In this document: positions 303-15,912 of the stretch, piece after piece
Layout of the letters: each line of letters starts with the position of its first letter
Position numbering within the stretch: the stretch's first letter is position 1
DNA from: Escherichia phage vB_Eco_mar003J3
Sequence record: NC_048203.1
DNA: 64,000 nt
Strand: one strand, 5' to 3'
Notes under the pieces: model-generated
Seen by the model: the letters and a program-made list of their open reading frames with translations, nothing else
What the model was told of the DNA's origin: nothing
The model's database searches: none
Translations under genes and position numbers: made by a program

Positions 303-866
303 TCAGCTAAAGGTGCAAATATTTTTAGGGTCTCCCCCAAGAGCCTTATATCTCTTTCGGAGTCCATTATCAGATAGTCCAAGTTCTCTTGAAGCTATAG
401 CCCAGGAGAAGTTTCGTACCCAATACTCTATATCTTCTTTTGTAATATCTCTATTCTTAATCCTAGCCGAAGCAGTACACTTTAAGCAGGCTTTTGAGGA
501 TTTATGCTTAGTATCACCACAAATAGGACAAACATCCGTTCTTCTACTAATATTGTTATCAGAACATGTTTTTATTACGTGCTCTTCTTTACTAAGAACT
601 TGTAGGTTGCTTAGTTCAAAATTTGCCGGATTTCTATCTTTATGGTCTACTTCTTTAGAGGAATAAAGATCTTCTAAATCTTTAAATACTCTGCATAATA
701 GTCTAGATATTAAAAGAGTATGCTCAACACCATTTTTACTTAGCTTAACACATGGATAACCTTTATTGTTAAGATAAGTAGCTATTTCTCTGTTAACATG
801 CAATGAGTAAACTTTGCCTGTTTCAGAAATTTTATACATAGGAAATTCAGGTATTGTCTTAAACAT
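303..866 (-). CDS. HNH homing endonuclease
   Basis: 187 aa; HNH-like core VDHKDRNPANFELSNLQVL plus C-terminal Cys cluster CPICG...CLKC. Confidence 0.7.
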   Translation of the reverse strand: MFKTIPEFPMYKISETGKVYSLHVNREIATYLNNKGYPCVKLSKNGVEHTLLISRLLCRVFKDLEDLYSSKEVDHKDRNPANFELSNLQVLSKEEHVIKTCSDNNISRRTDVCPICGDTKHKSSKACLKCTASARIKNRDITKEDIEYWVRNFSWAIASRELGLSDNGLRKRYKALGGDPKNICTFS

Positions 867-2833: not shown

Positions 2834-3343
2834 TTAATTATTTCGGGCATATTCCCCATGAAGTTTCTCTCTCAGTTGAATTAGAGCTTCATTTGCTGCT
2901 TCAGGAGTACTGTGCAGCCCTGCGGAGTATGACTTACCTTTAAACATTATTCTACCCTGCCACTGACCAGATGCTTTGTGGTAGGATACTCCCTTAAATC
3001 CGCTAGTATTCCTAGAAGATTTACTAGCATTATGAGTATTAGTGGTACTATCCGCTGCTCTTAAATTTAAAGGATGTATGTTTAACTTATTGCAGTCTTT
3101 ATGATCAATCATTTCCGGCCTATACCCATAATATAGTATAAATACTATGATATGAGCTAAGTAATCTTGGTGATCAACGTTAACTCTGATATACCCAGAG
3201 CTTTTGTGCAAAGATCCCGCAGGTTTATTGGCAAACTTAGTATTAAATATCTTCTCCTCTCTGGAGTTTCCGGAGAGCGGATTCCACACCAGTACACCAT
3301 CTTCTAAACGGAATCTATAAAGTATAGACTCATAGTCTAGCAT
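2834..3343 (-). CDS. HNH homing endonuclease
   Basis: 169 aa; IDHKDCNKLNIHPLNLRAA HNH core; C-terminal SGFKGVSYHK...W.GRI AP2-like region. Confidence 0.75.
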   Translation of the reverse strand: MLDYESILYRFRLEDGVLVWNPLSGNSREEKIFNTKFANKPAGSLHKSSGYIRVNVDHQDYLAHIIVFILYYGYRPEMIDHKDCNKLNIHPLNLRAADSTTNTHNASKSSRNTSGFKGVSYHKASGQWQGRIMFKGKSYSAGLHSTPEAANEALIQLREKLHGEYARNN

Positions 3344-3376
3344 AAATAGTTCCTAATCTTCCAAATTTATGAATAT

Positions 3377-3405
3377 ATTATACAGAAAATTTCGGCATTA
3401 AGCAA
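3377..3405 (-). promoter_or_regulatory. T5-type early promoter (-35 TTGCTT, 17 bp, -10 TATAAT)
   Basis: Minus-strand reading; part of a roughly 60-bp cassette repeated through the early region. Confidence 0.6.
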
Positions 3406-3413
3406 GTGAAATT

Positions 3414-3710
3414 TTACTGAACATTGCACTGATATACCTGTTTGATACGTGTCACTGACTTCTTAGTTGGGTTGATAGAAGAACCCTGCCACCAACGTGA
3501 CTCTGAGCTAAGAATAGCACCAGGAACAGCCTGCTCTTTTGGCAGAACAATATCAAAACACTGTTCACCCATATTATCTTTAATGTGTGACCAAATATCC
3601 AAAGTAAATCGTTCTAACTTATTACAAACCTGAACTTGACAAAGTTCCTGTTGCGGAGCAGCAAATACAGAAGTAGATACTAGAGTCAGTGCAAGTACAA
3701 TGCGTTTCAT
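3414..3710 (-). CDS. secreted small protein with N-terminal signal peptide
   Basis: 98 aa; MKRIVLALTLVSTSVFA-AP signal-peptidase-I-type leader; several Cys. Confidence 0.55.
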   Translation of the reverse strand: MKRIVLALTLVSTSVFAAPQQELCQVQVCNKLERFTLDIWSHIKDNMGEQCFDIVLPKEQAVPGAILSSESRWWQGSSINPTKKSVTRIKQVYQCNVQ

Positions 3711-3740
3711 GTTTGATTCCTCTCTCGAATTTATAAATAT

Positions 3741-3769
3741 ATTATATAGAAATTTTCTATATTAAGCAA
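3741..3769 (-). promoter_or_regulatory. T5-type early promoter (TTGCTT, 17 bp, TATAAT)
   Basis: Minus-strand reading. Confidence 0.6.
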
Positions 3770-3786
3770 GTGAAAATTTCTGTATA

Positions 3787-3809
3787 ATAGCCCTCGCTTA
3801 GAGGGCTAT
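3787..3809 (-). terminator. hairpin ATAGCCCTC-gctta-GAGGGCTAT just after pnuC stop
   Basis: Perfect 9-bp stem; flanking U-rich run is weak. Confidence 0.4.
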
Positions 3810-3816
3810 AACTACT

Positions 3817-4509
3817 TTATTTGTTAACGCGTACAAAGTATCCTTTATAGGCTCCCATAATAGAGTTACCTAAGAATACTAGCCACATTGCTAGGATTGC
3901 ATAAGATGCACCTGTAGATTGAGTAGTTACAAGCCAAATGTACACAGTACCAATGTTAATAGCAATCCAGATCAGCCACTGCTCGGCATACTGCTTAACC
4001 ATAAGCCACATAGCGATCACACTACCTACCGCAGTAAATGCATCCAACATTGGGAATGGATCAGCCGTAGTAGCTAAGAAACTACCATACCCTAACGTGG
4101 CTACTGCTAGAATCCCTAGAGTCAGCAGAGCTTGGACTTTAGTCAGAATCTTAGTTGGAACATCTGGCAGATTACTTGGCTTATTTTTATGCCATAAGTA
4201 CATTCCATAAAACTGCATAGGAACGTAGTATAGCAGGTTTAGTGCAGCGTTACCATAAAGATCTGCGTTTAAAGCTGTAATACCATAGGTAAGAACACCA
4301 ACTAAGCCCCAAATATAGTTAGAAACACGTCCTTTAGCAACCAAAATAACACAAACTACGTTGGTTATCGCAGTAGCCCAATCTAGAGGTGTACCATTAT
4401 AGTTAGCTAAACTAATGAAGGCAACCGCTATGAACAGCCACAGATATTCCAGAGGTTTCCAGTTTTTAAAGTCATTTACGAGATAGTTAGTCATATTAAA
4501 ACTCTCCAA
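3817..4509 (-). CDS. pnuC: PnuC-family nicotinamide riboside / NMN transporter
   Basis: 230 aa polytopic membrane protein; matches recalled E. coli PnuC in the YGxYxW and PFPxLD...WLxWIxINI regions; 14-nt overlap with upstream nadR-like gene. Confidence 0.85.
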   Translation of the reverse strand: MESFNMTNYLVNDFKNWKPLEYLWLFIAVAFISLANYNGTPLDWATAITNVVCVILVAKGRVSNYIWGLVGVLTYGITALNADLYGNAALNLLYYVPMQFYGMYLWHKNKPSNLPDVPTKILTKVQALLTLGILAVATLGYGSFLATTADPFPMLDAFTAVGSVIAMWLMVKQYAEQWLIWIAINIGTVYIWLVTTQSTGASYAILAMWLVFLGNSIMGAYKGYFVRVNK

Positions 4510-5551
4510 CGTTAAAGTGATGAATCAGCCAGTCTACTGCGTTTACTGCTTCGTCCATACGAACTTTGTAGTCCGGGGAGTCGATGTACACAGTACGCCC
4601 TTCAGGGAACTGATTTGGAAATTCTTTCTTCATCTGCTCGAACAGTTCAGAAGTAATTGAACGATCGGAGTTAATACGTAAACCATCATCTACCCACTTG
4701 ACAGTGGGCGCTAGAACAATTACTAAATCGTAATGTTCTTCTTTTGCAATTGCTGTAACCACAGGGTTCTTACGATGTTCATAAAGTCTGTGGTAGAACT
4801 CAGTAATAAAAGCATTTGTATCCACAAACATGATCTTATTTGCAGTACGTTCTGCCTCAAACTCTAGCTCTTTGTGTCTGAACGCAATTTTACTATAATC
4901 TTCGCTGGTAAGCAGATTTTCGTTACCAACTAGATCAACTTCACAATACGTTCGACCATATTCTTCTACCCACGAAGTGTTGTATAGCTTCGCAAGGTAT
5001 TTTGTTAAAGTAGTCTTTCCTGAGCTTTCAGTCCCAATGATTACAACCCTACGCACGTAATCTTTACGAACTACGCTAGGAAGAAACTCCCAATACTTCA
5101 TAAGATCATTACGAATCATTGTAGCTGAGATTGGAACACGAGTCCGATCAGAATCTACAATATAATGACCAAACTTCGGCAGATATTTCTTATATTCTGC
5201 ATCATAGTCTAGTTCGCTAGAGAAAATGGTGATCTCAGGCAAATGTCCGTAATTTTCATTAAGGATTCTAGCATATTCCGGCCAACCATTCGGATATTCA
5301 GGAATATCATCTTCAATAGTGTACTCTACCGAAATGTGCTCAATATCCGCGTAAGTTTGTTCTAACCAACGAAGTCGATTCTTTAACTGTAATACTTCCT
5401 GATCACGTGTGTTCTGCTTATCCAACCAACGATTATCATGACTAACTACAACAATAACTCGTTCACACATAGTTGCTGCTGTGTTTATTAGGTTAATATG
5501 ACCACGCGTTAATGGTGCGAACTTACCAATTACTAGACCAGTCTTAATCAT
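4496..5551 (-). CDS. nadR: NadR-like bifunctional NMN adenylyltransferase / ribosylnicotinamide kinase, no HTH domain
   Basis: GKFAPLTRGH nucleotidyltransferase motif, then Walker A GTESSGKTT kinase domain; start moved to MIKTG (SD GAGAGGAA) because the ORF-track extension to 5602 contains the promoter. Confidence 0.85.
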   Translation of the reverse strand: MIKTGLVIGKFAPLTRGHINLINTAATMCERVIVVVSHDNRWLDKQNTRDQEVLQLKNRLRWLEQTYADIEHISVEYTIEDDIPEYPNGWPEYARILNENYGHLPEITIFSSELDYDAEYKKYLPKFGHYIVDSDRTRVPISATMIRNDLMKYWEFLPSVVRKDYVRRVVIIGTESSGKTTLTKYLAKLYNTSWVEEYGRTYCEVDLVGNENLLTSEDYSKIAFRHKELEFEAERTANKIMFVDTNAFITEFYHRLYEHRKNPVVTAIAKEEHYDLVIVLAPTVKWVDDGLRINSDRSITSELFEQMKKEFPNQFPEGRTVYIDSPDYKVRMDEAVNAVDWLIHHFNVGEF

Positions 5552-5581
5552 ATTTGATTCCTCTCTCAAATTTATAAATAT

Positions 5582-5610
5582 ATTATACAGAGAATTTAGC
5601 ATTCAAGCAA
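5582..5610 (-). promoter_or_regulatory. T5-type early promoter (TTGCTT, 17 bp, TATAAT) for nadR-pnuC
   Basis: Minus-strand reading. Confidence 0.6.
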
Positions 5611-5769
5611 TCGAATTTTTTAACTTTTTAGTGGAAAAAATCTCAAGGCATTTAGTGGTAGCACGTTGTTGCTACAATAATAGTATATGATTCTAAAGAA
5701 TTAAAGAATTAAATACTAAAGACCTTAGTTGAATAACTTATGGGCTTTTCTTTTGCCTTAAATACAGAA

Positions 5770-5800
5770 AAGCCCACGCTCTCGGAGGAAACGCGGGCTT
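5770..5800 (-). terminator. hairpin terminator after SPFH gene
   Basis: AAGCCC...GGGCTT stem followed on minus strand by UUUCUGUAUUU. Confidence 0.5.
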
Positions 5801-5823
5801 GTTTCGAAGATTACGTGTAACTA

Positions 5824-6768
5824 TTACTTATTACGCATATCCATAATCATCTGGCCATCATAACCAGTACCTACAACAGTCTGAGGAACGCCACCCTGAT
5901 ATTTTTCAGCGCGTTTCATATCAACTTCCAGCTGTTTCCAGCGAATCATCTCTGGAGTGATGGTACGCTGCAGAGCGGTGTTAGCTTCAGCTTCTTTCTT
6001 AGCTGCATACAGTTTAGCATCTGCGTCACGTTCGTTAGCTACTGCCATATTTTCACGAGCAGAACGATCAGCCTCAGCTTGCTTAACTTTCTGCTGTGCT
6101 TCTTGTTCAACACGAGCTAGTTCAGCTTTTGCAGCGTTAACTTGTTCTTCACGAACTTTGGTGTTTTGTACCTGTTCCATGATTACCGGTGGCAGAGTAA
6201 TATCCTGAAGGAATACTTGCTTAACGGTGTAGCCATAAGGACGCGCATACTCTTCTACTTCTTGCTGAATAGCGGTTTGCAGTTGAGCCTGAATCTTAGC
6301 GTCGAACAGATCTTGTGCTTTTGGTACAGACTTACCAAACTCACGAATCGTAGACAGCATCTTCTCTTCAACGTACTTGTTCAGAGCTTGATCCTGAGTA
6401 CCTGCGTTAACACGGTTCATAGGAGCTTTAGCACCATCAAACTGCAACATAACTGTAATGTCAACTGTAGACTTAAACTTATCCTGGCTAGGAACCTGAA
6501 GTTTATCCAGTTTCATAGAAATATCTTTCGTACTAAAAGTATCAAAAGAGGCGAATGGGTTGACAATATGGAACCCCGGCAATACAGGATTAGGACTAAC
6601 TTTACCCAGGAAAGTCTGAGTTTTAACCGTACCATCCTGAACAACTGTATAGGAATTGAGAGCCAGAATAAGAGCGCCAAGACCAACTACAGCACCAACA
6701 CCCCAACGTTTAATAGCACGAATTACTTTTTGATCGGAAGTCAGTTCTTTAGTGTTTTTAGTAAACAT
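5824..6768 (-). CDS. SPFH/band-7 (prohibitin/HflC-like) membrane protein
   Basis: 314 aa; N-terminal TM helix, band-7-like core, long charged coiled-coil C-terminus. Confidence 0.65.
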   Translation of the reverse strand: MFTKNTKELTSDQKVIRAIKRWGVGAVVGLGALILALNSYTVVQDGTVKTQTFLGKVSPNPVLPGFHIVNPFASFDTFSTKDISMKLDKLQVPSQDKFKSTVDITVMLQFDGAKAPMNRVNAGTQDQALNKYVEEKMLSTIREFGKSVPKAQDLFDAKIQAQLQTAIQQEVEEYARPYGYTVKQVFLQDITLPPVIMEQVQNTKVREEQVNAAKAELARVEQEAQQKVKQAEADRSARENMAVANERDADAKLYAAKKEAEANTALQRTITPEMIRWKQLEVDMKRAEKYQGGVPQTVVGTGYDGQMIMDMRNK

Positions 6769-6779
6769 ATATTTCCTTA

Positions 6780-6980
6780 TTATTTAGAAGAGTTAGCTAC
6801 TACAGTTACTTTAGTTGCAGAAATAAACAGGCTAGCATCCACAGCAAATTCAGGAGCTTTGATATCTCCGTTATGAAATATGACTATACCGGAGACTACT
6901 TCAAATGCTAGCGCTGTAACATCGGTGGTATTTACTTGTGAATGTTCACCTACTACTTTTACTATATATCGTGTTTTCAC
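6780..6980 (-). CDS. hypothetical protein (66 aa)
   Basis: ORF only. Confidence 0.4.
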   Translation of the reverse strand: MKTRYIVKVVGEHSQVNTTDVTALAFEVVSGIVIFHNGDIKAPEFAVDASLFISATKVTVVANSSK

Positions 6981-7006
6981 TTTATTTTCCTAGCAGTTAA
7001 TAAAAT

Positions 7007-7081
7007 TGGCCGAGGTGACAGGATTCGAACCTGCATAAAGGAATTTAGAAGACTCCTGCCTATCCCTTAGACTACACCCCG
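7007..7081 (-). tRNA. tRNA-Arg (anticodon TCT)
   Basis: 75 nt; acceptor CGGGGTG/CACCTCG, D stem GTCT/AGGC, anticodon stem GGAGT/ATTCC with loop CTTCTAA, T-arm GCAGG-TTCGAAT-CCTGT, CCA. Confidence 0.7.
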
Positions 7082-7577
7082 TTTAGGTATTTTTAAGAAC
7101 TCTTATAAAAGCTCTTAAAGATACCGCCAGTAGCGAAGGACGAATCCCTTCATTAAGCGTCTCATTGGTACACACTACTGCCAGACGTATCTTCCAGTTT
7201 ACGTCAAGGTGACTTTGTGGTTATGTTCTCCGTATGTGAAGAACTCGGTTAGGCTTAGGTCATGACTCCCCGCCTACTGCTGCCACTCAACAGGAATTAT
7301 CGCGAATTACCTGTACTATTGGGCACCATTAGTGACATCTCTCATGTCAGCATTTCCCACTTTGTGGATAGCTTGAAAAACTACTCCGATATGGAGAAAG
7401 AACTTCACTATCCTAGAAATACCTTCTAAAGTTCTTCTTTAGCCTGGACATAGTTAAATCGTAATAAAACTATTCAGCAGACTGGTTGGTTAGCCTGGAA
7501 CCAACTACCGCGTGGTTTAGGCAGTGCGTAACTAACCTCGGAAGCTTTTACGTTAAAAGCTTCAGTTATCCAGTTCT

Positions 7578-7649
7578 TACCGACCGTAGGATTCGAACCT
7601 ACATCTTCCACCAGTTACGGCTTGATAATACCAATTATACTAGGACGGC
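7578..7649 (-). tRNA. tRNA-like gene, anticodon arm not resolvable (possible pseudo-tRNA)
   Basis: Acceptor GCCGTCC/GGTCGGT (one mismatch) and T-arm GTAGG-TTCGAAT-CCTAC clear; no 5-bp/7-nt anticodon arm found; no CCA. Confidence 0.4.
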
Positions 7650-7687
7650 AGTGTTACTACATAAGTGATTTCCACACACCACTATTA

Positions 7688-8170
7688 CTAACCAAAGTTA
7701 GTAAATTCTTTATGTAAGGATTCTCTTAATATCTTAGAGGCCTCGAAAGCCTCTTCCGCAGTTTTAAACCCTCTTTTACTGTAATTTTTTCCTTCATGTC
7801 TTACTTGGTATCTCCAGGAAGAGCCTTCCCAACTTACTCCTTTGTACCCAGAAGTATTATTGCATTGTTGGTTTCTATTCGCATTGTTTTGCGATCTAGA
7901 GGCGTCCCTTAGATTATTTTTCCTATTATTTCTAGGATTAGTATCCTTATGATCTACTTCTTCAGGCCTATATCCATAGTACATAATAAACAATAAGACA
8001 TGCAGTTGATAGGTGTCGCCCTGAAATCCCACATCTGGATGTGATTTCTTATTATTGGCACAACACTCTTTCAAACCTTTCTTTGTTTTCCTATATAGTA
8101 TCCCATTATCAGGATCAGCTACAAAATATTTTTCAAGTATTTCTTTAGTAGGGTATTCTTTCCTTTTCAT
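7688..8170 (-). CDS. HNH homing endonuclease
   Basis: 160 aa; EEVDHKDTNPRNNRKNNLR core; SGYKGVSW...WRYQV AP2-like C-terminus. Confidence 0.75.
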   Translation of the reverse strand: MKRKEYPTKEILEKYFVADPDNGILYRKTKKGLKECCANNKKSHPDVGFQGDTYQLHVLLFIMYYGYRPEEVDHKDTNPRNNRKNNLRDASRSQNNANRNQQCNNTSGYKGVSWEGSSWRYQVRHEGKNYSKRGFKTAEEAFEASKILRESLHKEFTNFG

Positions 8171-8176
8171 GAATAT

Positions 8177-8205
8177 ATGATACAGAATTTTGGAACGTTT
8201 AGCAA
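8177..8205 (-). promoter_or_regulatory. sigma70-like promoter (-35 TTGCTA, 17 bp, -10 TATCAT)
   Basis: Minus-strand reading. Confidence 0.5.
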
Positions 8206-8213
8206 ATCAATTT

Positions 8214-8657
8214 TTAATTAAATTCGCCAGCAACCTGAGCAGCAATGCCACCATCGTAACGACCAGGAAACTCTTCCTTAATCGCTTTCATCAGCATACC
8301 CTTTGTAATCCCAGGATTCAGCTTAACTAATTCTGCAAAGTATTTGCGAATCTCAGAATCAGATAGCTGAGGAGGCAAATACTGCTGTAACCATTTGTTC
8401 AGTATATATTCATACTGAGCAGACTGCAAGCTATAATTATCAAGATCTTGACTGTGAAGTTTAGATTTCGTCTGATTAATGCTTTTCAGTTGAGCTTTTA
8501 GATAAGATATAAACTGTTCAGAAGTAATGAAGTCTTTATCAACACGCTGAAGATCTCCGATTATGGTCTGGTAGCTTTTAGCTACTTCTTTATCAGAACC
8601 ATCAAACTTGGATTCCTGCAAAGCCCTACGCAAAACATCTAGAATATTCTCTTCCAT
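8214..8657 (-). CDS. GatB/YqeY-domain protein
   Basis: 147 aa; C-terminal GITKGMLMKAIKEEFPGRYDG resembles the YqeY signature as recalled. Confidence 0.6.
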   Translation of the reverse strand: MEENILDVLRRALQESKFDGSDKEVAKSYQTIIGDLQRVDKDFITSEQFISYLKAQLKSINQTKSKLHSQDLDNYSLQSAQYEYILNKWLQQYLPPQLSDSEIRKYFAELVKLNPGITKGMLMKAIKEEFPGRYDGGIAAQVAGEFN

Positions 8658-8827
8658 TATTTAATTCCCAGTGCTTGGTTAAAAAATTGTTCTGTCATAA
8701 CTGCCGAGACTTTAGCGAAATCAAACTTCTTAGGGTTTGTAGTAATTTCAGCAACGTTAGTAGTTTTAACTGTTTTCGTAGTACGGATACCACGAGTATT
8801 AACACCAATAATTACAACTGATTTCAT
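8657..8827 (-). CDS. small hypothetical protein (56 aa), absent from ORF track
   Basis: ATG at 8827 with SD GAGAGGAA; MKSVVIIGVNTRG...; stop overlaps next gene start. Confidence 0.35.
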   Translation of the reverse strand: MKSVVIIGVNTRGIRTTKTVKTTNVAEITTNPKKFDFAKVSAVMTEQFFNQALGIK

Positions 8828-8858
8828 ATTTCGCTTCCTCTCATTAATTTATGAAAGT

Positions 8859-8887
8859 ATTATACAGAAATTTAAGGCTTTAAGCAA
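8859..8887 (-). promoter_or_regulatory. T5-type early promoter (TTGCTT, 17 bp, TATAAT)
   Basis: Minus-strand reading. Confidence 0.6.
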
Positions 8888-8895
8888 TCGAATTT

Positions 8896-9363
8896 TTAAG
8901 TTTTCTTAACCACAGGTTTATAGAACGTATGGCCTTGAATCTTTGTTGTTTTCTTAAACTTCTTTGTCCAGTACGGTTTATCTTTACCACTATGGAAGTA
9001 TAACGCTCCATGTGTTGGATCTTGTGGTAAATCAACGTAGTATATCACTCTAGCTACATTCTTAGCAGTTTGCCAAGCCGCATCGGTTTTATCAACTTTT
9101 GGTCTCTTAGATACCCAAGAGAACTGGTTAGACTGATATACTACTTTACAGTAAGAATCCGGAAATGTACCAGAGTTAACACGGTTTTTAGTGACCTGTG
9201 CAACTGCAACCATTCCCTTCGTGCCCTCACCTCGGCTCTCAAAATAGACATTTTTTGCAATGCAATCAATCTGTTTAGCGTCGTAGGTCGCATGACTATT
9301 GAAGCTATAGGTTAGGGCAGCTATTAAAAGCAAAGCTGCCTTCATTTTATTTACTCCGGCCAA
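8896..9363 (-). CDS. secreted cell-wall hydrolase (SleB/Hydrolase_2-like)
   Basis: 155 aa; signal peptide MKAALLLIAALTYSFNSHA; NVYFESRGEG...AVAQVTKNRV motif. Confidence 0.6.
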   Translation of the reverse strand: MAGVNKMKAALLLIAALTYSFNSHATYDAKQIDCIAKNVYFESRGEGTKGMVAVAQVTKNRVNSGTFPDSYCKVVYQSNQFSWVSKRPKVDKTDAAWQTAKNVARVIYYVDLPQDPTHGALYFHSGKDKPYWTKKFKKTTKIQGHTFYKPVVKKT

Positions 9364-9668
9364 TCGTACTCAATACGATTAGGGCTTTCTTGATACCCTT
9401 CGTCTAAGAGATCATTACGCATGGTCTCTTTAGCTACTGGGTTCGAGGTTACTAGTACCACTTTCTTGGGTCTCTGACCAAATTCTAGGAGTAAACGAAG
9501 AATTTGATAACCTTCCATACCATCTACAGCCAGATCGTTATCCATATAAACGAAATGGCCTGTGGTATCGGTTTTATTCAGAAACTCAACAGCGGCTTCG
9601 GGGGTTCGAATGATAATGTCCATTCCATGGAGGTTACGCACATCATCAATCAGAATATGAAAAACCAT
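9351..9668 (-). CDS. hypothetical protein, possible receiver-like fold
   Basis: 105 aa; ILIDD...YMDNDL acidic pocket-like pattern; weak. Confidence 0.4.
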   Translation of the reverse strand: MVFHILIDDVRNLHGMDIIIRTPEAAVEFLNKTDTTGHFVYMDNDLAVDGMEGYQILRLLLEFGQRPKKVVLVTSNPVAKETMRNDLLDEGYQESPNRIEYDWPE

Positions 9669-9698
9669 AATAGCCTCGTCTCATCAATTTAAAAATAT

Positions 9699-9727
9699 AT
9701 TATACAGAAAACTAAACTAATTAGCAA
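9699..9727 (-). promoter_or_regulatory. T5-type early promoter (TTGCTA, 17 bp, TATAAT)
   Basis: Minus-strand reading. Confidence 0.55.
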
Positions 9728-10111
9728 ATACATTTTTAAATTGAGAGACTAGTAAACCGATAAACAGCCTAGAGGCGCCACAGGCCATATCTTATGAGCC
9801 ATGTACCTTTGATCTAGGGTTTGAATCATCAACGAATACTTTGCATCTTTTAGCTTTAGAAGGTTAGAAGTTTGAGTGCTTTTAACTTTTCAGCTTTCAT
9901 ACTTGAGCGTTGATCTTTGAAGTTGTGTTGGTACTACCAACGACCTTTTGTTTTTACGTGTCAGATTAAATGTCCGATGTAATAAACATAATCTCCAATA
10001 GATTATACTTTATAGTATGGTCAGCGGTCTTATTTAACCTCGTATTTCAACCGCTGCTGCGAGGTAAGATGCTTGGGCTTTCGTCTACCGATTTACTAGT
10101 CTTTTAAATTA

Positions 10112-14700: not shown

Positions 14701-15054
14701 TTAGATTATAATCAAGATTATTAGGGCGTATGTCAGATAATGCAGTAACTGATCAAATCCTAAAGCTATCCAAAACTTAGCATCGCTTATAGCGTATTTA
14801 CAGCGTTGTGCTTTCCAATAATCTATAATAAAGTGTAGAATTAATTCCATAATAGCTAAAGCTATAGACATTCCTGGTGATGTGAATAGGATTAGAATTG
14901 CAAATGTTAATCCAGCATGTACTAGCGAATGGGTTAATAATGGAAGTTTCCACCCTATTTTATGCGTCTTTCTTAGCATATATGGTGTTTGGAGTGGATA
15001 ATCGGCCATAAAATGTTTTAGAAAGAATATGACAAATAATAGTATAATTAACAT
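14701..15054 (-). CDS. small integral membrane protein
   Basis: 117 aa; 3-4 hydrophobic helices. Confidence 0.5.
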   Translation of the reverse strand: MLIILLFVIFFLKHFMADYPLQTPYMLRKTHKIGWKLPLLTHSLVHAGLTFAILILFTSPGMSIALAIMELILHFIIDYWKAQRCKYAISDAKFWIALGFDQLLHYLTYALIILIII

Positions 15055-15057
15055 ATG

Positions 15058-15912
15058 TTACACCGTAAATGGATATGCAATAGCAGGATGGTGTTCATAG
15101 CCACGAACAGTAAAATCATCTTTACTTACCCACGTTAATACATCATCCAAAGTTCTAATATTTGGATTGATTTCTAAAGTAGGAGGTGCAAAAGGTTCAC
15201 GATCGAATTGCTTGTGCTCCATCAGAACATTATACTGATCTTCATAGATATGAAGATTAATAATCTTTTGACGAGCAATACCTGGCTTAAGACCTGTAAT
15301 CTGTGCCATAATAGCTAGAAGTGCATAGCATTGCACCATATTAAATACTTGGCCCAGCAAGAAATCATTAGACCTCTGGAAAGAGTTTAGGTATAGTGTA
15401 TCACCTAAAATAGAGAATTGATGGGTATGCATACACGGACGTAGGCATCCTTTACGAAATTCCCCAGGGTTCCAAAAAGTTAAAATTTCTCCACGATCGT
15501 CAATCCCTCTTTTCAAATTATGATAGACTTTGGCTAACTGATCAAATACCATACCATCAGAATTAGTCCAATGACGTCCTTGAACACCATAGACTCGTCC
15601 CATATCATCCTCGCCTTTACGGAATGGATTACCTAGCCAGGCAATATTTTCATTTGCATTAGCATTCCATGTATTAACACCAATAGCGCGGAATTGTGCT
15701 GCTGAGTCGTACCCACGGAGATATCCGATCATTTCCATTATTGCTTGTTTAGCAAATGCTTTACGAGTAGTTACTAGCGGCAGTTCTCCTGCTCCTACGT
15801 TAAAGGTAAAGTCTGCATCAATAATGGTTAGGCAACGAACCCCTGTTCTAGGATTCGTTACCCATACACCCTCTTCAATAATACGTTTTCCAGTTTCAAT
15901 ATATTGGCGCAT
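15058..15912 (-). CDS. thyA: thymidylate synthase
   Basis: 284 aa; [12 protein letters not shown] catalytic Cys region and other ThyA blocks. Confidence 0.9.

What the first reader, a model, noticed from the sequence alone, without database searches (positions are those of the whole stretch)
3414..9668. Cluster of early envelope-directed proteins
Within 6 kb are a signal-peptide small protein (3414-3710), an SPFH/band-7 membrane scaffold (5824-6768), a signal-peptide SleB-like cell-wall hydrolase (8896-9363) and a small receiver-like protein (9351-9668). Early-expressed secreted or membrane proteins in this phage group are candidates for superinfection exclusion, receptor masking or local peptidoglycan remodelling rather than lysis.
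Basis: inference. Interest (0 to 1): 0.4.

Follow-up and report, generated by a model that had tools for sequence, protein, structure and literature searches.

The report
T5-like phage early accessory genes
This stretch is the well-known early accessory region of a T5-like Salmonella phage: several separately promoted small gene units, some exported to the cell envelope and others working on NAD+ or tRNA inside the cell, and not one envelope-directed system.

Summary
The window is a T5-like Epseptimavirus, 97.8% identical to Salmonella phage 2-3. All four ORFs exist.

- **Small protein, 3414-3710:** it has a cleavable signal peptide.
- **SPFH/Band 7, 5824-6768:** Pfam E 8e-20, with an N-terminal membrane anchor.
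- **SleB-like hydrolase:** Pfam E 3e-26, with the catalytic ESRGE motif and a signal peptide. Its real start is probably 9345, not 9363.
- **"Receiver-like" protein, 9351-9668:** this is a cREC domain, a predicted cytoplasmic cyclic-phosphate phosphoesterase. It is not an envelope protein.

T5-type early promoters divide the region into about five units:
- sp98
- the published NARP3 NAD+ salvage pair (NadR-like + PnuC)
- HNH / tRNA-Arg / orf66 / SPFH
- DUF7616 / YqeY-like
- cREC / SleB-like

Early timing and export are supported. Superinfection exclusion and receptor masking have no evidence. The SleB-like gene lies about 18 kb from the canonical holin-endolysin cassette, but relatives in other phages are implicated in lysis.

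One modest new lead emerged. The small secreted protein sits next to NARP3 in at least three unrelated phage lineages, although either can occur without the other.

These genes are already annotated in hundreds of genomes, so interest is low.

The parts
3414..3710 (-). sp98: a small Sec-exported protein (phrog_6894) with four invariant Cys. Function unknown.
   Evidence: ORF. No Pfam, NCBIfam or padloc hit. 70 homologues, all with a variable N-terminal leader, plus invariant CxVxVCN and NPTKxSVT motifs. AF2 pLDDT 80, with no structural analogue outside its own family.
3741..3769 (-). T5-type early promoter (TTGCTT-17-TATAAT) serving sp98.
3787..3809 (-). 9-bp GC-rich hairpin between the PnuC stop and the sp98 promoter. 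It may be a weak terminator; it has no clean T-run.
   Evidence: Read directly from the sequence.
3817..4494 (-). PnuC-like nicotinamide riboside transporter (NARP3 component; inner membrane).
   Evidence: PF04973 E 3.9e-43; TIGR01528 above its cut-off. About 97% nt identity to the phage TrudiRoth/Bas30 operon. NARP3 paper.
4496..5551 (-). NadR-like bifunctional NR kinase / NMN adenylyltransferase (NARP3 component; cytoplasmic).
   Evidence: PF13521 + PF01467; NF005988 at 261 bits against a cut-off of 201. NARP3 paper. The 5551 start follows the annotation of phage 2-3, and the promoter at 5582-5610 lies upstream of it.
5582..5610 (-). T5-type early promoter serving NadR-PnuC.
5770..5800 (-). 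Intrinsic terminator (12-bp stem followed by a T-run) that closes the SPFH unit.
   Evidence: T5 annotates an efficient terminator at the same place, after T5.080.
5824..6768 (-). SPFH/Band 7 membrane-anchored protein (the T5.080 homologue).
   Evidence: PF01145 E 8e-20. Nearest solved relatives are QmcA and prohibitins. Anchor at residues 19-44. 81% aa identity to T4-like Slopekvirus phages.
6780..6980 (-). orf66, a small conserved hypothetical protein (phrog_11609). Absent from T5.
7007..7081 (-). tRNA-Arg (TCT).
7688..8170 (-). HNH homing endonuclease, inserted in the region that T5 annotates as rnaX.
8214..8657 (-). YqeY-like protein (the T5.081 homologue). The Pfam match is weak.
   Evidence: PF09424 at 25.1 bits, below the cut-off of 27; phrog_1460.
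8657..8827 (-). DUF7616 small protein (the T5.082 homologue).
   Evidence: PF24592 E 3.6e-33
8859..8887 (-). Early promoter, homologous to T5 P-D/E 33, serving DUF7616-YqeY.
8896..9345 (-). Sec-exported SleB/CwlJ-family (Hydrolase_2) peptidoglycan-cleaving enzyme (the T5.083 homologue).
   Evidence: PF07486 E 2.8e-26. 4F55 alignment with ESRGE. Family alignment shows invariant E36, C28 and C66, and a hydrophobic leader in 24 of 25 members (one is N-terminally truncated). ATG 9345 is preceded by GGAG.
9351..9668 (-). cREC (cyclic-phosphate-processing receiver-like) domain protein, cytoplasmic (the T5.084 homologue).
   Evidence: PF20274 E 1.1e-14. Invariant D8, D43-N44-D45 and T74. AF2 pLDDT 91.6 with REC-domain structural matches. 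Literature.
9699..9727 (-). Early promoter (TTGCTA-17-TATAAT) serving the cREC-SleB bicistron.
   Evidence: 96% identical to the T5 promoter annotated upstream of T5.084.

Best explanation
The 6.3-kb stretch is not one system. It is a run of about five independently promoted early transcription units in the accessory, tRNA-rich arm of a T5-like phage (Epseptimavirus). In order of transcription they are:

1. **cREC + SleB-like.** This is a bicistron. The cREC product stays in the cytoplasm and is predicted (not shown) to hydrolyse cyclic phosphates on RNA ends or ADP-ribose derivatives. The SleB-like product is exported by Sec. Its leader is probably cleaved after SHA, and it probably forms a Cys28-Cys66 disulfide. 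It is inferred to cut glycan strands of the sacculus using the conserved Glu of ESRGE. It acts as a second muralytic activity, separate from the canonical holin/endolysin/spanin cassette.
2. **DUF7616 + YqeY-like.** Both are cytoplasmic, with unknown function.
3. **HNH endonuclease, tRNA-like element, tRNA-Arg, orf66 and SPFH.** The SPFH protein is anchored by one N-terminal helix. The positive-inside rule (+4 before the helix, +1 after it) predicts an HflK/C-like topology with the SPFH domain in the periplasm. By analogy with QmcA, HflK/C and prohibitin, it would form an oligomeric cage on the inner membrane.
4. **NadR-like + PnuC.** This is the experimentally characterised NARP3 pathway. It imports nicotinamide riboside and rebuilds NAD+ to defeat NAD+-depleting defences.
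5. **sp98.** A small periplasmic protein, probably disulfide-bonded through its four invariant Cys, with its own early promoter and no known function.

The shared feature is early timing and accessory status, not a shared envelope function.
For: - **Identity of the region.** It is 97.8% identical to phage 2-3 and similarly annotated in hundreds of records. T5 carries the SPFH ... YqeY-DUF7616-SleB-cREC block with mapped promoters and terminators.
- **Domains.**
- **Promoters.** 19 consensus early promoters against 0.45 expected, all on the coding strand, four of them in the region. Two align to T5 promoters at 92-96%. A terminator follows SPFH. A hairpin and a separate promoter precede sp98.
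- **cREC/SleB junction.** The cREC stop is followed by GGAG-N8-ATG, the SleB-like start.
- **Modules are separable.** T5 lacks NARP3, sp98 and orf66. STWB21 has sp98 without NARP3, and phiR2-01 has NARP3 without sp98. In My1 the cREC gene is 3 kb from the SleB-like gene, and Vibrio KVP40-like cREC genes have no annotated hydrolase neighbour.
- **NARP3.** Experiments are reported in PMC13464706.
- **cREC.** Its predicted role comes from PMC7824862 and PMC9503650. The REC fold was confirmed.
- **Canonical lysis genes.** The holin, endolysin and spanin of phage 2-3 lie at 4.9-8.2 kb, about 18 kb away from the SleB-like gene.
- **Export.** It is conserved across the SleB-like family and the sp98 family.
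Against: - No biochemical or genetic data were found for sp98, SPFH, the SleB-like protein or cREC in any T5-like phage. Their mechanisms here are inferred from family membership.
- Signal peptides and topology rest on sequence rules only; no SignalP or TMHMM was available.
- Export signals are modestly enriched in this stretch (P 0.06 against the early arm), so some common envelope theme is not excluded.
- sp98 lies next to NARP3 in several unrelated lineages. An sp98 homologue lies next to an SPFH gene in one metagenomic phage contig. Both observations hint at links between 'separate' modules.
- The promoter for the SPFH unit is only a one-mismatch match (8205-8177).
Confidence: 0.72

Rival explanations
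1. The exported and membrane proteins (sp98, SPFH, SleB-like) form a coordinated early envelope programme whose purpose is superinfection exclusion, receptor masking or local wall remodelling.
For: All three are behind early-type promoters and carry export or anchor signals. Export signals are mildly enriched locally. An sp98 homologue lies next to an SPFH gene in L025. Functions are untested, so the idea is not excluded.
Against: - The three lie in separate transcription units, interleaved with cytoplasmic NAD+ and tRNA functions.
- They are independently present or absent: T5 has SPFH and SleB-like but no sp98.
- sp98 has no lipobox, unlike the T5 receptor-masking lipoprotein Llp (own knowledge).
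- No padloc hit was found.
- The SPFH and SleB-like families each occur in many phage groups that use different receptors. That argues against receptor-specific masking.
Confidence: 0.1
2. The SleB-like protein is a true Sec-exported endolysin. It contributes to, or backs up, host lysis and is activated when the holin collapses the membrane potential.
For: - Signal-peptide SleB-like proteins of Vequintavirinae are implicated in lysis and reported as toxic in E. coli (PMC7344957).
- PHROG and RefSeq label the family 'endolysin'.
- The catalytic Glu and the export leader are conserved.
- T5 lysis genes themselves sit in the early region.
Against: - T5-like phages already have a holin-endolysin pair plus a nearby spanin elsewhere.
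- The gene is paired with a cytoplasmic cREC gene, not with a holin.
- An early-made, freely secreted, fully active lysin would risk premature lysis.
- It scores far below the SleB equivalog cut-off (54.8 against 236.5 bits), so its substrate specificity is unknown.
Confidence: 0.3
3. sp98 is a periplasmic accessory of the NARP3 NAD+ salvage module. It might capture nicotinamide riboside, or modulate the periplasmic conversion of NAD+/NMN to nicotinamide riboside that feeds PnuC.
For: - sp98 homologues lie on the same strand, within about 0.3-3 kb of NadR-like and PnuC genes, in 8 of 22 non-T5-like loci examined.
- Those loci span at least three lineages: Serratia BF / Erwinia jumbo phages, PVP-SE1-like phages and a 145-kb metagenomic phage.
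- The gene order differs from the window.
- PnuC occurs in only 777 of 50,697 phage records and sp98 in only 262.
- T5 lacks both.
- sp98 is more conserved (about 60% identity) than PnuC (about 35%) between these lineages.
Against: - The two are separable in both directions within Epseptimavirus: STWB21 and phiR2-01.
- 14 of the 22 non-T5-like loci have no NARP3 within 10 kb and have varied neighbours.
- sp98 has its own promoter and is preceded by a hairpin.
- The published two-gene NARP3 is sufficient in E. coli.
- There is no fold or sequence similarity to any ligand-binding family.
Confidence: 0.2
4. cREC and the SleB-like protein form a functional pair, for example with cREC regulating or sensing for the hydrolase as a receiver domain would.
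For: The two genes are tightly packed in a bicistron, with 5 nt between the stop and the start. This arrangement is conserved across Markadamsvirinae and more distant relatives down to about 57% identity.
Against: - The adjacency is broken in Pectobacterium phage My1 and absent in Vibrio phages.
- cREC has no output domain and no leader, so the two proteins end up in different compartments.
- The cREC family is never linked to histidine kinases and is tied instead to RNA repair and NAD-ADPr contexts.
Confidence: 0.05

Closest known systems
Bacteriophage T5 early genes T5.080-T5.084 and their Epseptimavirus counterparts (e.g. Salmonella phage 2-3 gp135-gp144, rokbiter_95-105)
   Same: Same genes in the same order and on the same strand. 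They show 88-99% protein identity, and the promoters and terminator are conserved.
   Different: T5 has a plus-strand cassette (T5.077-079) where this phage has NARP3 + sp98. T5 also lacks orf66, and has no HNH insertion in the rnaX region.
NARP3 (Bas30_86/Bas30_87 of Escherichia phage TrudiRoth), Sci Adv 2026, PMC13464706
   Same: Window 3817-5551 is the same operon at about 97% nt identity: a NadR-like enzyme lacking the HTH domain, plus PnuC.
   Different: The paper defines a two-gene system and does not mention the adjacent secreted sp98 gene.
Bacillus SleB/CwlJ spore-cortex lytic enzymes (PDB 4F55, 4FET; PF07486)
   Same: The catalytic domain is homologous, and the Glu of the ExRGE motif is conserved.
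   Different: It has no N-terminal peptidoglycan-binding domain and carries a Sec leader instead. It scores far below the SleB equivalog cut-off. The host wall has no muramic delta-lactam, so its substrate must differ (own knowledge).
Signal-peptide SleB-like lysins of Vequintavirinae (e.g. Pectobacterium phage CB7_83, Cronobacter CR3_087)
   Same: Same domain, with a signal peptide.
   Different: Identity is only about 38%. Those phages lack a classic lysis cassette, and their gene overlaps a holin candidate. Here a separate holin-endolysin cassette exists and the neighbour is cREC.
Bacterial SPFH proteins HflK/HflC, QmcA and prohibitins
   Same: It has the SPFH domain followed by an Ala/Glu/Gln-rich helical region and a single N-terminal anchor. 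The best solved match is QmcA (8Z5G), E 7.7e-5.
   Different: The similarity is distant. The predicted N-in topology resembles HflK/C, not QmcA (inference). No partner subunit or FtsH link is known. It is phage-borne and 81% identical between unrelated phage families.
cREC domains of jumbo and medium-sized phages (Aravind group)
   Same: It scores above the Pfam threshold, has the conserved Asp residues and has no histidine kinase partner.
   Different: Here it stands alone and is not next to an RNA ligase, Nudix, sirtuin or Macro gene. Its neighbours are a wall hydrolase and tRNA-associated genes.

Membership tests
SPFH / Band 7 (PF01145) | SPFH domain scoring above the curated threshold | tested here: met
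   72 bits against a cut-off of 23.6, E 8e-20.
SPFH / Band 7 (PF01145) | N-terminal membrane anchor and a C-terminal helical (coiled-coil) region | tested here: met
   A hydrophobic window spans residues 19-44. Residues about 200-265 align to the helical region of QmcA.
SPFH / Band 7 (PF01145) | Assembly into a large oligomeric membrane cage, or association with FtsH | not testable with these tools
   This needs biochemistry or cryo-EM.
SleB/CwlJ cell-wall hydrolase (PF07486) | Hydrolase_2 domain above threshold, with the catalytic Glu | tested here: met
   92.5 bits against a cut-off of 27. ESRGE aligns with B. cereus SleB. E36 is invariant in 25 homologues.
Spore SleB orthologue (TIGR02869 equivalog) | Full-length match including the N-terminal peptidoglycan-binding domain | tested here: not met
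   54.8 bits against a cut-off of 236.5. Only the catalytic half aligns.
Endolysin of a lysis cassette | Located beside the holin/spanin genes | tested here: not met
   In the 97.8%-identical phage 2-3 the holin and endolysin lie at 4.9-5.9 kb and the spanin at 7.7-8.2 kb, while the SleB-like gene lies at 28.9 kb. T5 shows the same separation.
cREC (PF20274) | Domain above threshold, receiver fold and conserved acidic active-site residues | tested here: met
   55.3 bits against a cut-off of 27. AF2 pLDDT 91.6 with Foldseek top hits to REC domains, TM 0.55-0.59. D8, D43, D45 and T74 are invariant.
cREC (PF20274) | Gene context of RNA repair or NAD-ADPr processing | tested here: inconclusive
   No RNA ligase, Nudix, Macro or sirtuin gene is adjacent. 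tRNA genes, a YqeY-like gene and NARP3 lie within 1-5 kb.
Two-component response regulator | Cognate histidine kinase and/or an output domain | tested here: not met
   It is a 105-aa single domain, and no kinase appears in the region or in T5. The literature says cREC is never linked to histidine kinases.
NARP3 NAD+ reconstitution pathway | Adjacent PnuC-type transporter and HTH-less NadR-like bifunctional enzyme | tested here: met
   About 97% nt identity to the Bas30 operon. Definition.
Known superinfection-exclusion / receptor-masking proteins (T5 Llp type lipoprotein) | Lipobox lipoprotein encoded beside the receptor-binding protein gene | tested here: not met
   sp98 and the SleB-like protein have AXA-type cleavage sites and no lipobox Cys. 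The genes lie in the tRNA arm, not beside tail genes. The Llp features are from my own knowledge.

The most novel reading that the evidence does not exclude
The small secreted protein sp98 (3414-3710) is an unrecognised third, periplasmic component of the phage NARP3 NAD+-reconstitution system. It would improve supply of nicotinamide riboside to PnuC under natural, precursor-limited conditions. That would explain why it travels with NadR-like/PnuC genes in at least three unrelated phage lineages and is unusually well conserved.
Probability: 0.2. Interest if true: 0.55.

Novelty: already known. Interest (0 to 1): 0.22.

Why it matters
As it stands this finding is routine annotation. The same genes, with the same domain labels, appear in hundreds of deposited T5-like genomes, and the middle of the stretch is a pathway published in 2026.

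Three small points could justify bench work in a tractable model such as BASEL phage Bas30:
- **sp98 and NARP3.** Does the conserved secreted protein sp98 assist NARP3?
- **SleB-like timing.** How does an early-expressed, Sec-exported SleB-type enzyme avoid lysing the cell too soon, and what bond does it cut in a wall that lacks muramic lactam?
- **SPFH conservation.** Why is an SPFH membrane scaffold kept at about 81% identity between unrelated virulent phage families?

Tried and rejected
- **sp98 against known families.** Sequence searches of Pfam, NCBIfam, padloc and PDB found nothing. Foldseek of the AF2 model against PDB and BFVD found nothing outside its own family. A profile search of 1.84 billion representative proteins found only 33 small clusters and no informative fusions.
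- **A common partner for sp98 away from NARP3.** In loci without NARP3 the neighbours are varied: DnaB, ribonucleotide reductase, RNA ligase, and SPFH once.
- **A cREC-SleB functional pair.** Rejected, because the adjacency breaks in My1 and is absent in Vibrio phages.
- **The generic sigma-70 scan.** It was not enriched (14 hits against 19 expected). The T5-specific pattern was needed.
- **Literature.** Searches found no experimental work on T5.080, T5.083 or T5.084 homologues, only annotation remarks.

Full report
**What the window is.** Bases 3300-9800 match 516 phage records. The best match is 97.8% identity over 100% of the query, to Salmonella phage 2-3 (Demerecviridae, Markadamsvirinae, Epseptimavirus). 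All genes in the first ~22 kb lie on the minus strand, interspersed with tRNA genes. This is the tRNA-rich early arm familiar from phage T5. T5 carries homologues of most of the block: T5.080 (SPFH), tRNA-Arg, T5.081, T5.082, T5.083 (SleB-like) and T5.084.

**Checking the observation.** The four ORFs exist as described.
- **3414-3710.** The product begins MKR-IVLALTLVSTSVF-A|AP, a textbook Sec leader without a lipobox. It has no Pfam, NCBIfam, padloc or PDB sequence match.
- **5824-6768.** This is a Band_7/SPFH protein (E 8e-20) with one hydrophobic anchor at residues ~19-44. Its nearest solved relatives are QmcA and prohibitins.
- **8896-9363.** This is a Hydrolase_2 (SleB/CwlJ) protein (E 2.8e-26). 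Its ESRGE motif aligns with that of B. cereus SleB.
- **9351-9668.** This matches PF20274, the cREC 'cyclic-phosphate processing receiver' domain (E 1.1e-14). An AlphaFold model (pLDDT 91.6) has response-regulator receiver domains as its top PDB matches, TM 0.55-0.59.

One coordinate needs correcting. The cREC stop (9351) is followed by GGAG and an ATG at 9345. The SleB-like gene therefore most likely starts at 9345, not at the TTG at 9363; relatives are annotated that way.

**Is it a cluster?** Only weakly. A crude hydropathy screen finds 4 of 9 called genes in the stretch with an export or membrane signal: sp98, PnuC, SPFH and SleB-like. The comparison figures are 7 of 34 in the same early arm (P about 0.06, post hoc) and 8 of 76 in the whole window (P 0.005). 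The four named genes are also interleaved with other elements:
- a NadR-like enzyme and PnuC
- tRNA-Arg
- an HNH homing endonuclease
- a weak YqeY-like protein
- a DUF7616 protein

**Transcription units.**
- **Promoter count.** The T5-style promoter pattern TTGCT-N17-19-TATAAT occurs 19 times in the window against 0.45 expected by chance. Every copy is on the local coding strand.
- **Promoters in the region.** Four copies fall here: 9699-9727 (before cREC), 8859-8887 (before DUF7616), 5582-5610 (before NadR) and 3741-3769 (before sp98).
- **Match to T5.** The first two align at 96% and 92% identity to promoters annotated in T5, one of them the named promoter P-D/E 33.
- **Other signals.** A strong terminator (5800-5770) follows SPFH, as in T5. 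A GC-rich hairpin (3787-3809) and a separate promoter lie between PnuC and sp98.
- **Conclusion.** That these are early-class promoters is my own knowledge of T5, plus the T5 annotation.

**The middle of the stretch is already explained.** Window 3817-5551 is about 97% identical to the Bas30_86/87 operon of Escherichia phage TrudiRoth. A 2026 paper showed that this pair (PnuC-like transporter plus HTH-less NadR-like kinase/adenylyltransferase) is NARP3. NARP3 imports nicotinamide riboside, rebuilds NAD+ and overcomes Sir2-HerA and DSR1 defences (PMC13464706).

**The receiver-like protein is not an envelope protein.**
- **Localisation.** It has no leader.
- **Active site.** It retains the receiver-type acidic residues D8, D43-N44-D45 and T74.
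- **Family.** The Aravind group found this family only in RNA-repair and NAD-ADPr contexts, never with histidine kinases. They predict it hydrolyses 2',3'-cyclic phosphates or cyclic ADP-ribose phosphate. The family is experimentally uncharacterised (PMC7824862, PMC9503650).
- **Link to the SleB-like gene.** The tight pairing is conserved within Markadamsvirinae and relatives. It is broken in Pectobacterium phage My1 and absent in Vibrio KVP40-like phages. I read it as inherited gene order, not a functional pair.

**The SleB-like protein.**
- **Conserved features.** In an alignment of 25 homologues down to 34% identity, 24 have an N-terminal hydrophobic leader (the exception is N-terminally truncated). 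E36, C28 and C66 are invariant. This fits an exported, disulfide-bonded enzyme.
- **Distribution.** The domain occurs in 1,439 phage records of Gram-negative hosts.
- **Not a spore SleB orthologue.** It scores 54.8 bits against an equivalog cut-off of 236.5 and lacks the peptidoglycan-binding domain.
- **Not part of the lysis cassette.** In phage 2-3 the holin and endolysin lie at 4.9-5.9 kb and the spanin at 7.7-8.2 kb, whereas this gene is at 28.9 kb. T5 shows the same separation.
- **Lysis not excluded.** Signal-peptide homologues in Vequintavirinae are implicated in lysis and reported as toxic in E. coli (PMC7344957). 'Rather than lysis' is therefore not established.

**The SPFH protein.**
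- **Topology.** The charge balance around the anchor (+4 before, +1 after) predicts N-in/C-out, an HflK/C-like periplasmic orientation. This is inference.
- **Conservation.** The protein is about 81% identical over residues 38-312 to proteins of T4-like Slopekvirus myoviruses, and about 64% identical to proteins of T4-like Aeromonas phages. This implies recent exchange and strong constraint.
- **Function.** I found no functional study. The 'lipoprotein' label in RefSeq and PHROGs is not supported by the sequence.

**The small secreted protein sp98.**
- **Family.** It has 70 homologues, all with variable leaders. Four Cys are invariant, as are the motifs CxVxVCN and NPTKxSVT. The family is compact: only 33 representative clusters among 1.84 billion proteins. 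Its fold has no analogue in PDB or BFVD.
- **Linkage to NARP3.** The homologue lies on the same strand next to NadR-like and PnuC genes in Serratia jumbo phage BF, Erwinia jumbo phages, PVP-SE1-like phages and a 145-kb metagenomic phage. That is 8 of 22 non-T5-like loci, with a gene order different from the window.
- **Rarity.** PnuC and sp98 occur in only about 1.5% and 0.5% of phage records respectively, so this linkage is unlikely to be chance.
- **Against an obligate link.** STWB21 has sp98 without NARP3, and phiR2-01 has NARP3 without sp98. Fourteen loci show other neighbours. Published NARP3 works with two genes alone.
- **Assessment.** I put a real functional link at about 0.2.

**Verdict.** The stretch is nonetheless a mosaic of independent, already-annotated accessory modules. 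One named member is cytoplasmic, and no evidence points to superinfection exclusion or receptor masking. Novelty is low. The only new lead is the recurrent sp98-NARP3 neighbourhood.

Noticed in passing
window 7578-7649 (-): A second tRNA-like element: Rfam tRNA at 35.5 bits against a cut-off of 29. ARAGORN did not call it. Relatives annotate it variously as 'tRNA-OTHER' or 'tRNA-Sec'. It lies in the region that T5 annotates as the stable RNA 'rnaX'.
   Followed up: partly
window 3711-3769 and 5552-5610 (-); also 3344-3405: Nearly identical promoter-plus-5'UTR cassettes precede sp98 and NadR: TTGCTT-N17-TATAAT, then atatttataaatt(c/t)gagagaggaatcaaa(c/t)ATG. A similar one precedes the HNH gene at 3343. 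Such repeats could mediate cassette shuffling between T5-like genomes. Many T5-likes that lack NARP3 still match the NadR promoter segment.
   Followed up: partly
window 5824-6768 (-): The SPFH protein is about 81% identical (residues 38-312) to proteins of T4-like Slopekvirus myoviruses (Klebsiella, Citrobacter, Enterobacter) and about 64% identical to proteins of T4-like Aeromonas phages. This implies recent horizontal exchange between unrelated virulent phage families. Only the N-terminal anchor differs.
   Followed up: no
L025 10001-11722: In a 55-kb IMG/VR phage contig, the sp98 homologue is immediately followed by a 440-aa SPFH/Band_7 gene. This is a single case of direct sp98-SPFH adjacency.
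   Followed up: no
L042 (Salmonella phage STWB21) and L043 (Yersinia phage phiR2-01): The NARP3 slot is a swap site. STWB21 keeps sp98 but has a T5.077-079-like plus-strand cassette in place of NadR-PnuC. phiR2-01 keeps NadR-PnuC but lacks sp98.
   Followed up: yes
window 4496-5602 (-): The longest ORF for the NadR-like gene starts at 5602. The early promoter (5582-5610) lies inside that extension, and relatives annotate the start at 5551. The 17 extra N-terminal residues are probably not translated.
   Followed up: yes
window 303-866, 2834-3343, 7688-8170 (-): Three HNH/AP2-type homing-endonuclease-like ORFs are scattered among the tRNA and accessory genes. Their presence varies between close relatives, which accounts for most of the indel differences.
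   Followed up: no
window 14701-15054 and 15058-15912 (-): Two further adjacent early-arm ORFs have strong transmembrane-like segments. They lie outside the finding and were not examined further.
   Followed up: no
window 8214-8657 (-): The 'tRNA amidotransferase' label carried by RefSeq and PHROGs rests on a sub-threshold YqeY match covering only the C-terminal ~55 residues (25.1 bits against a cut-off of 27). It looks like over-annotation.
   Followed up: partly
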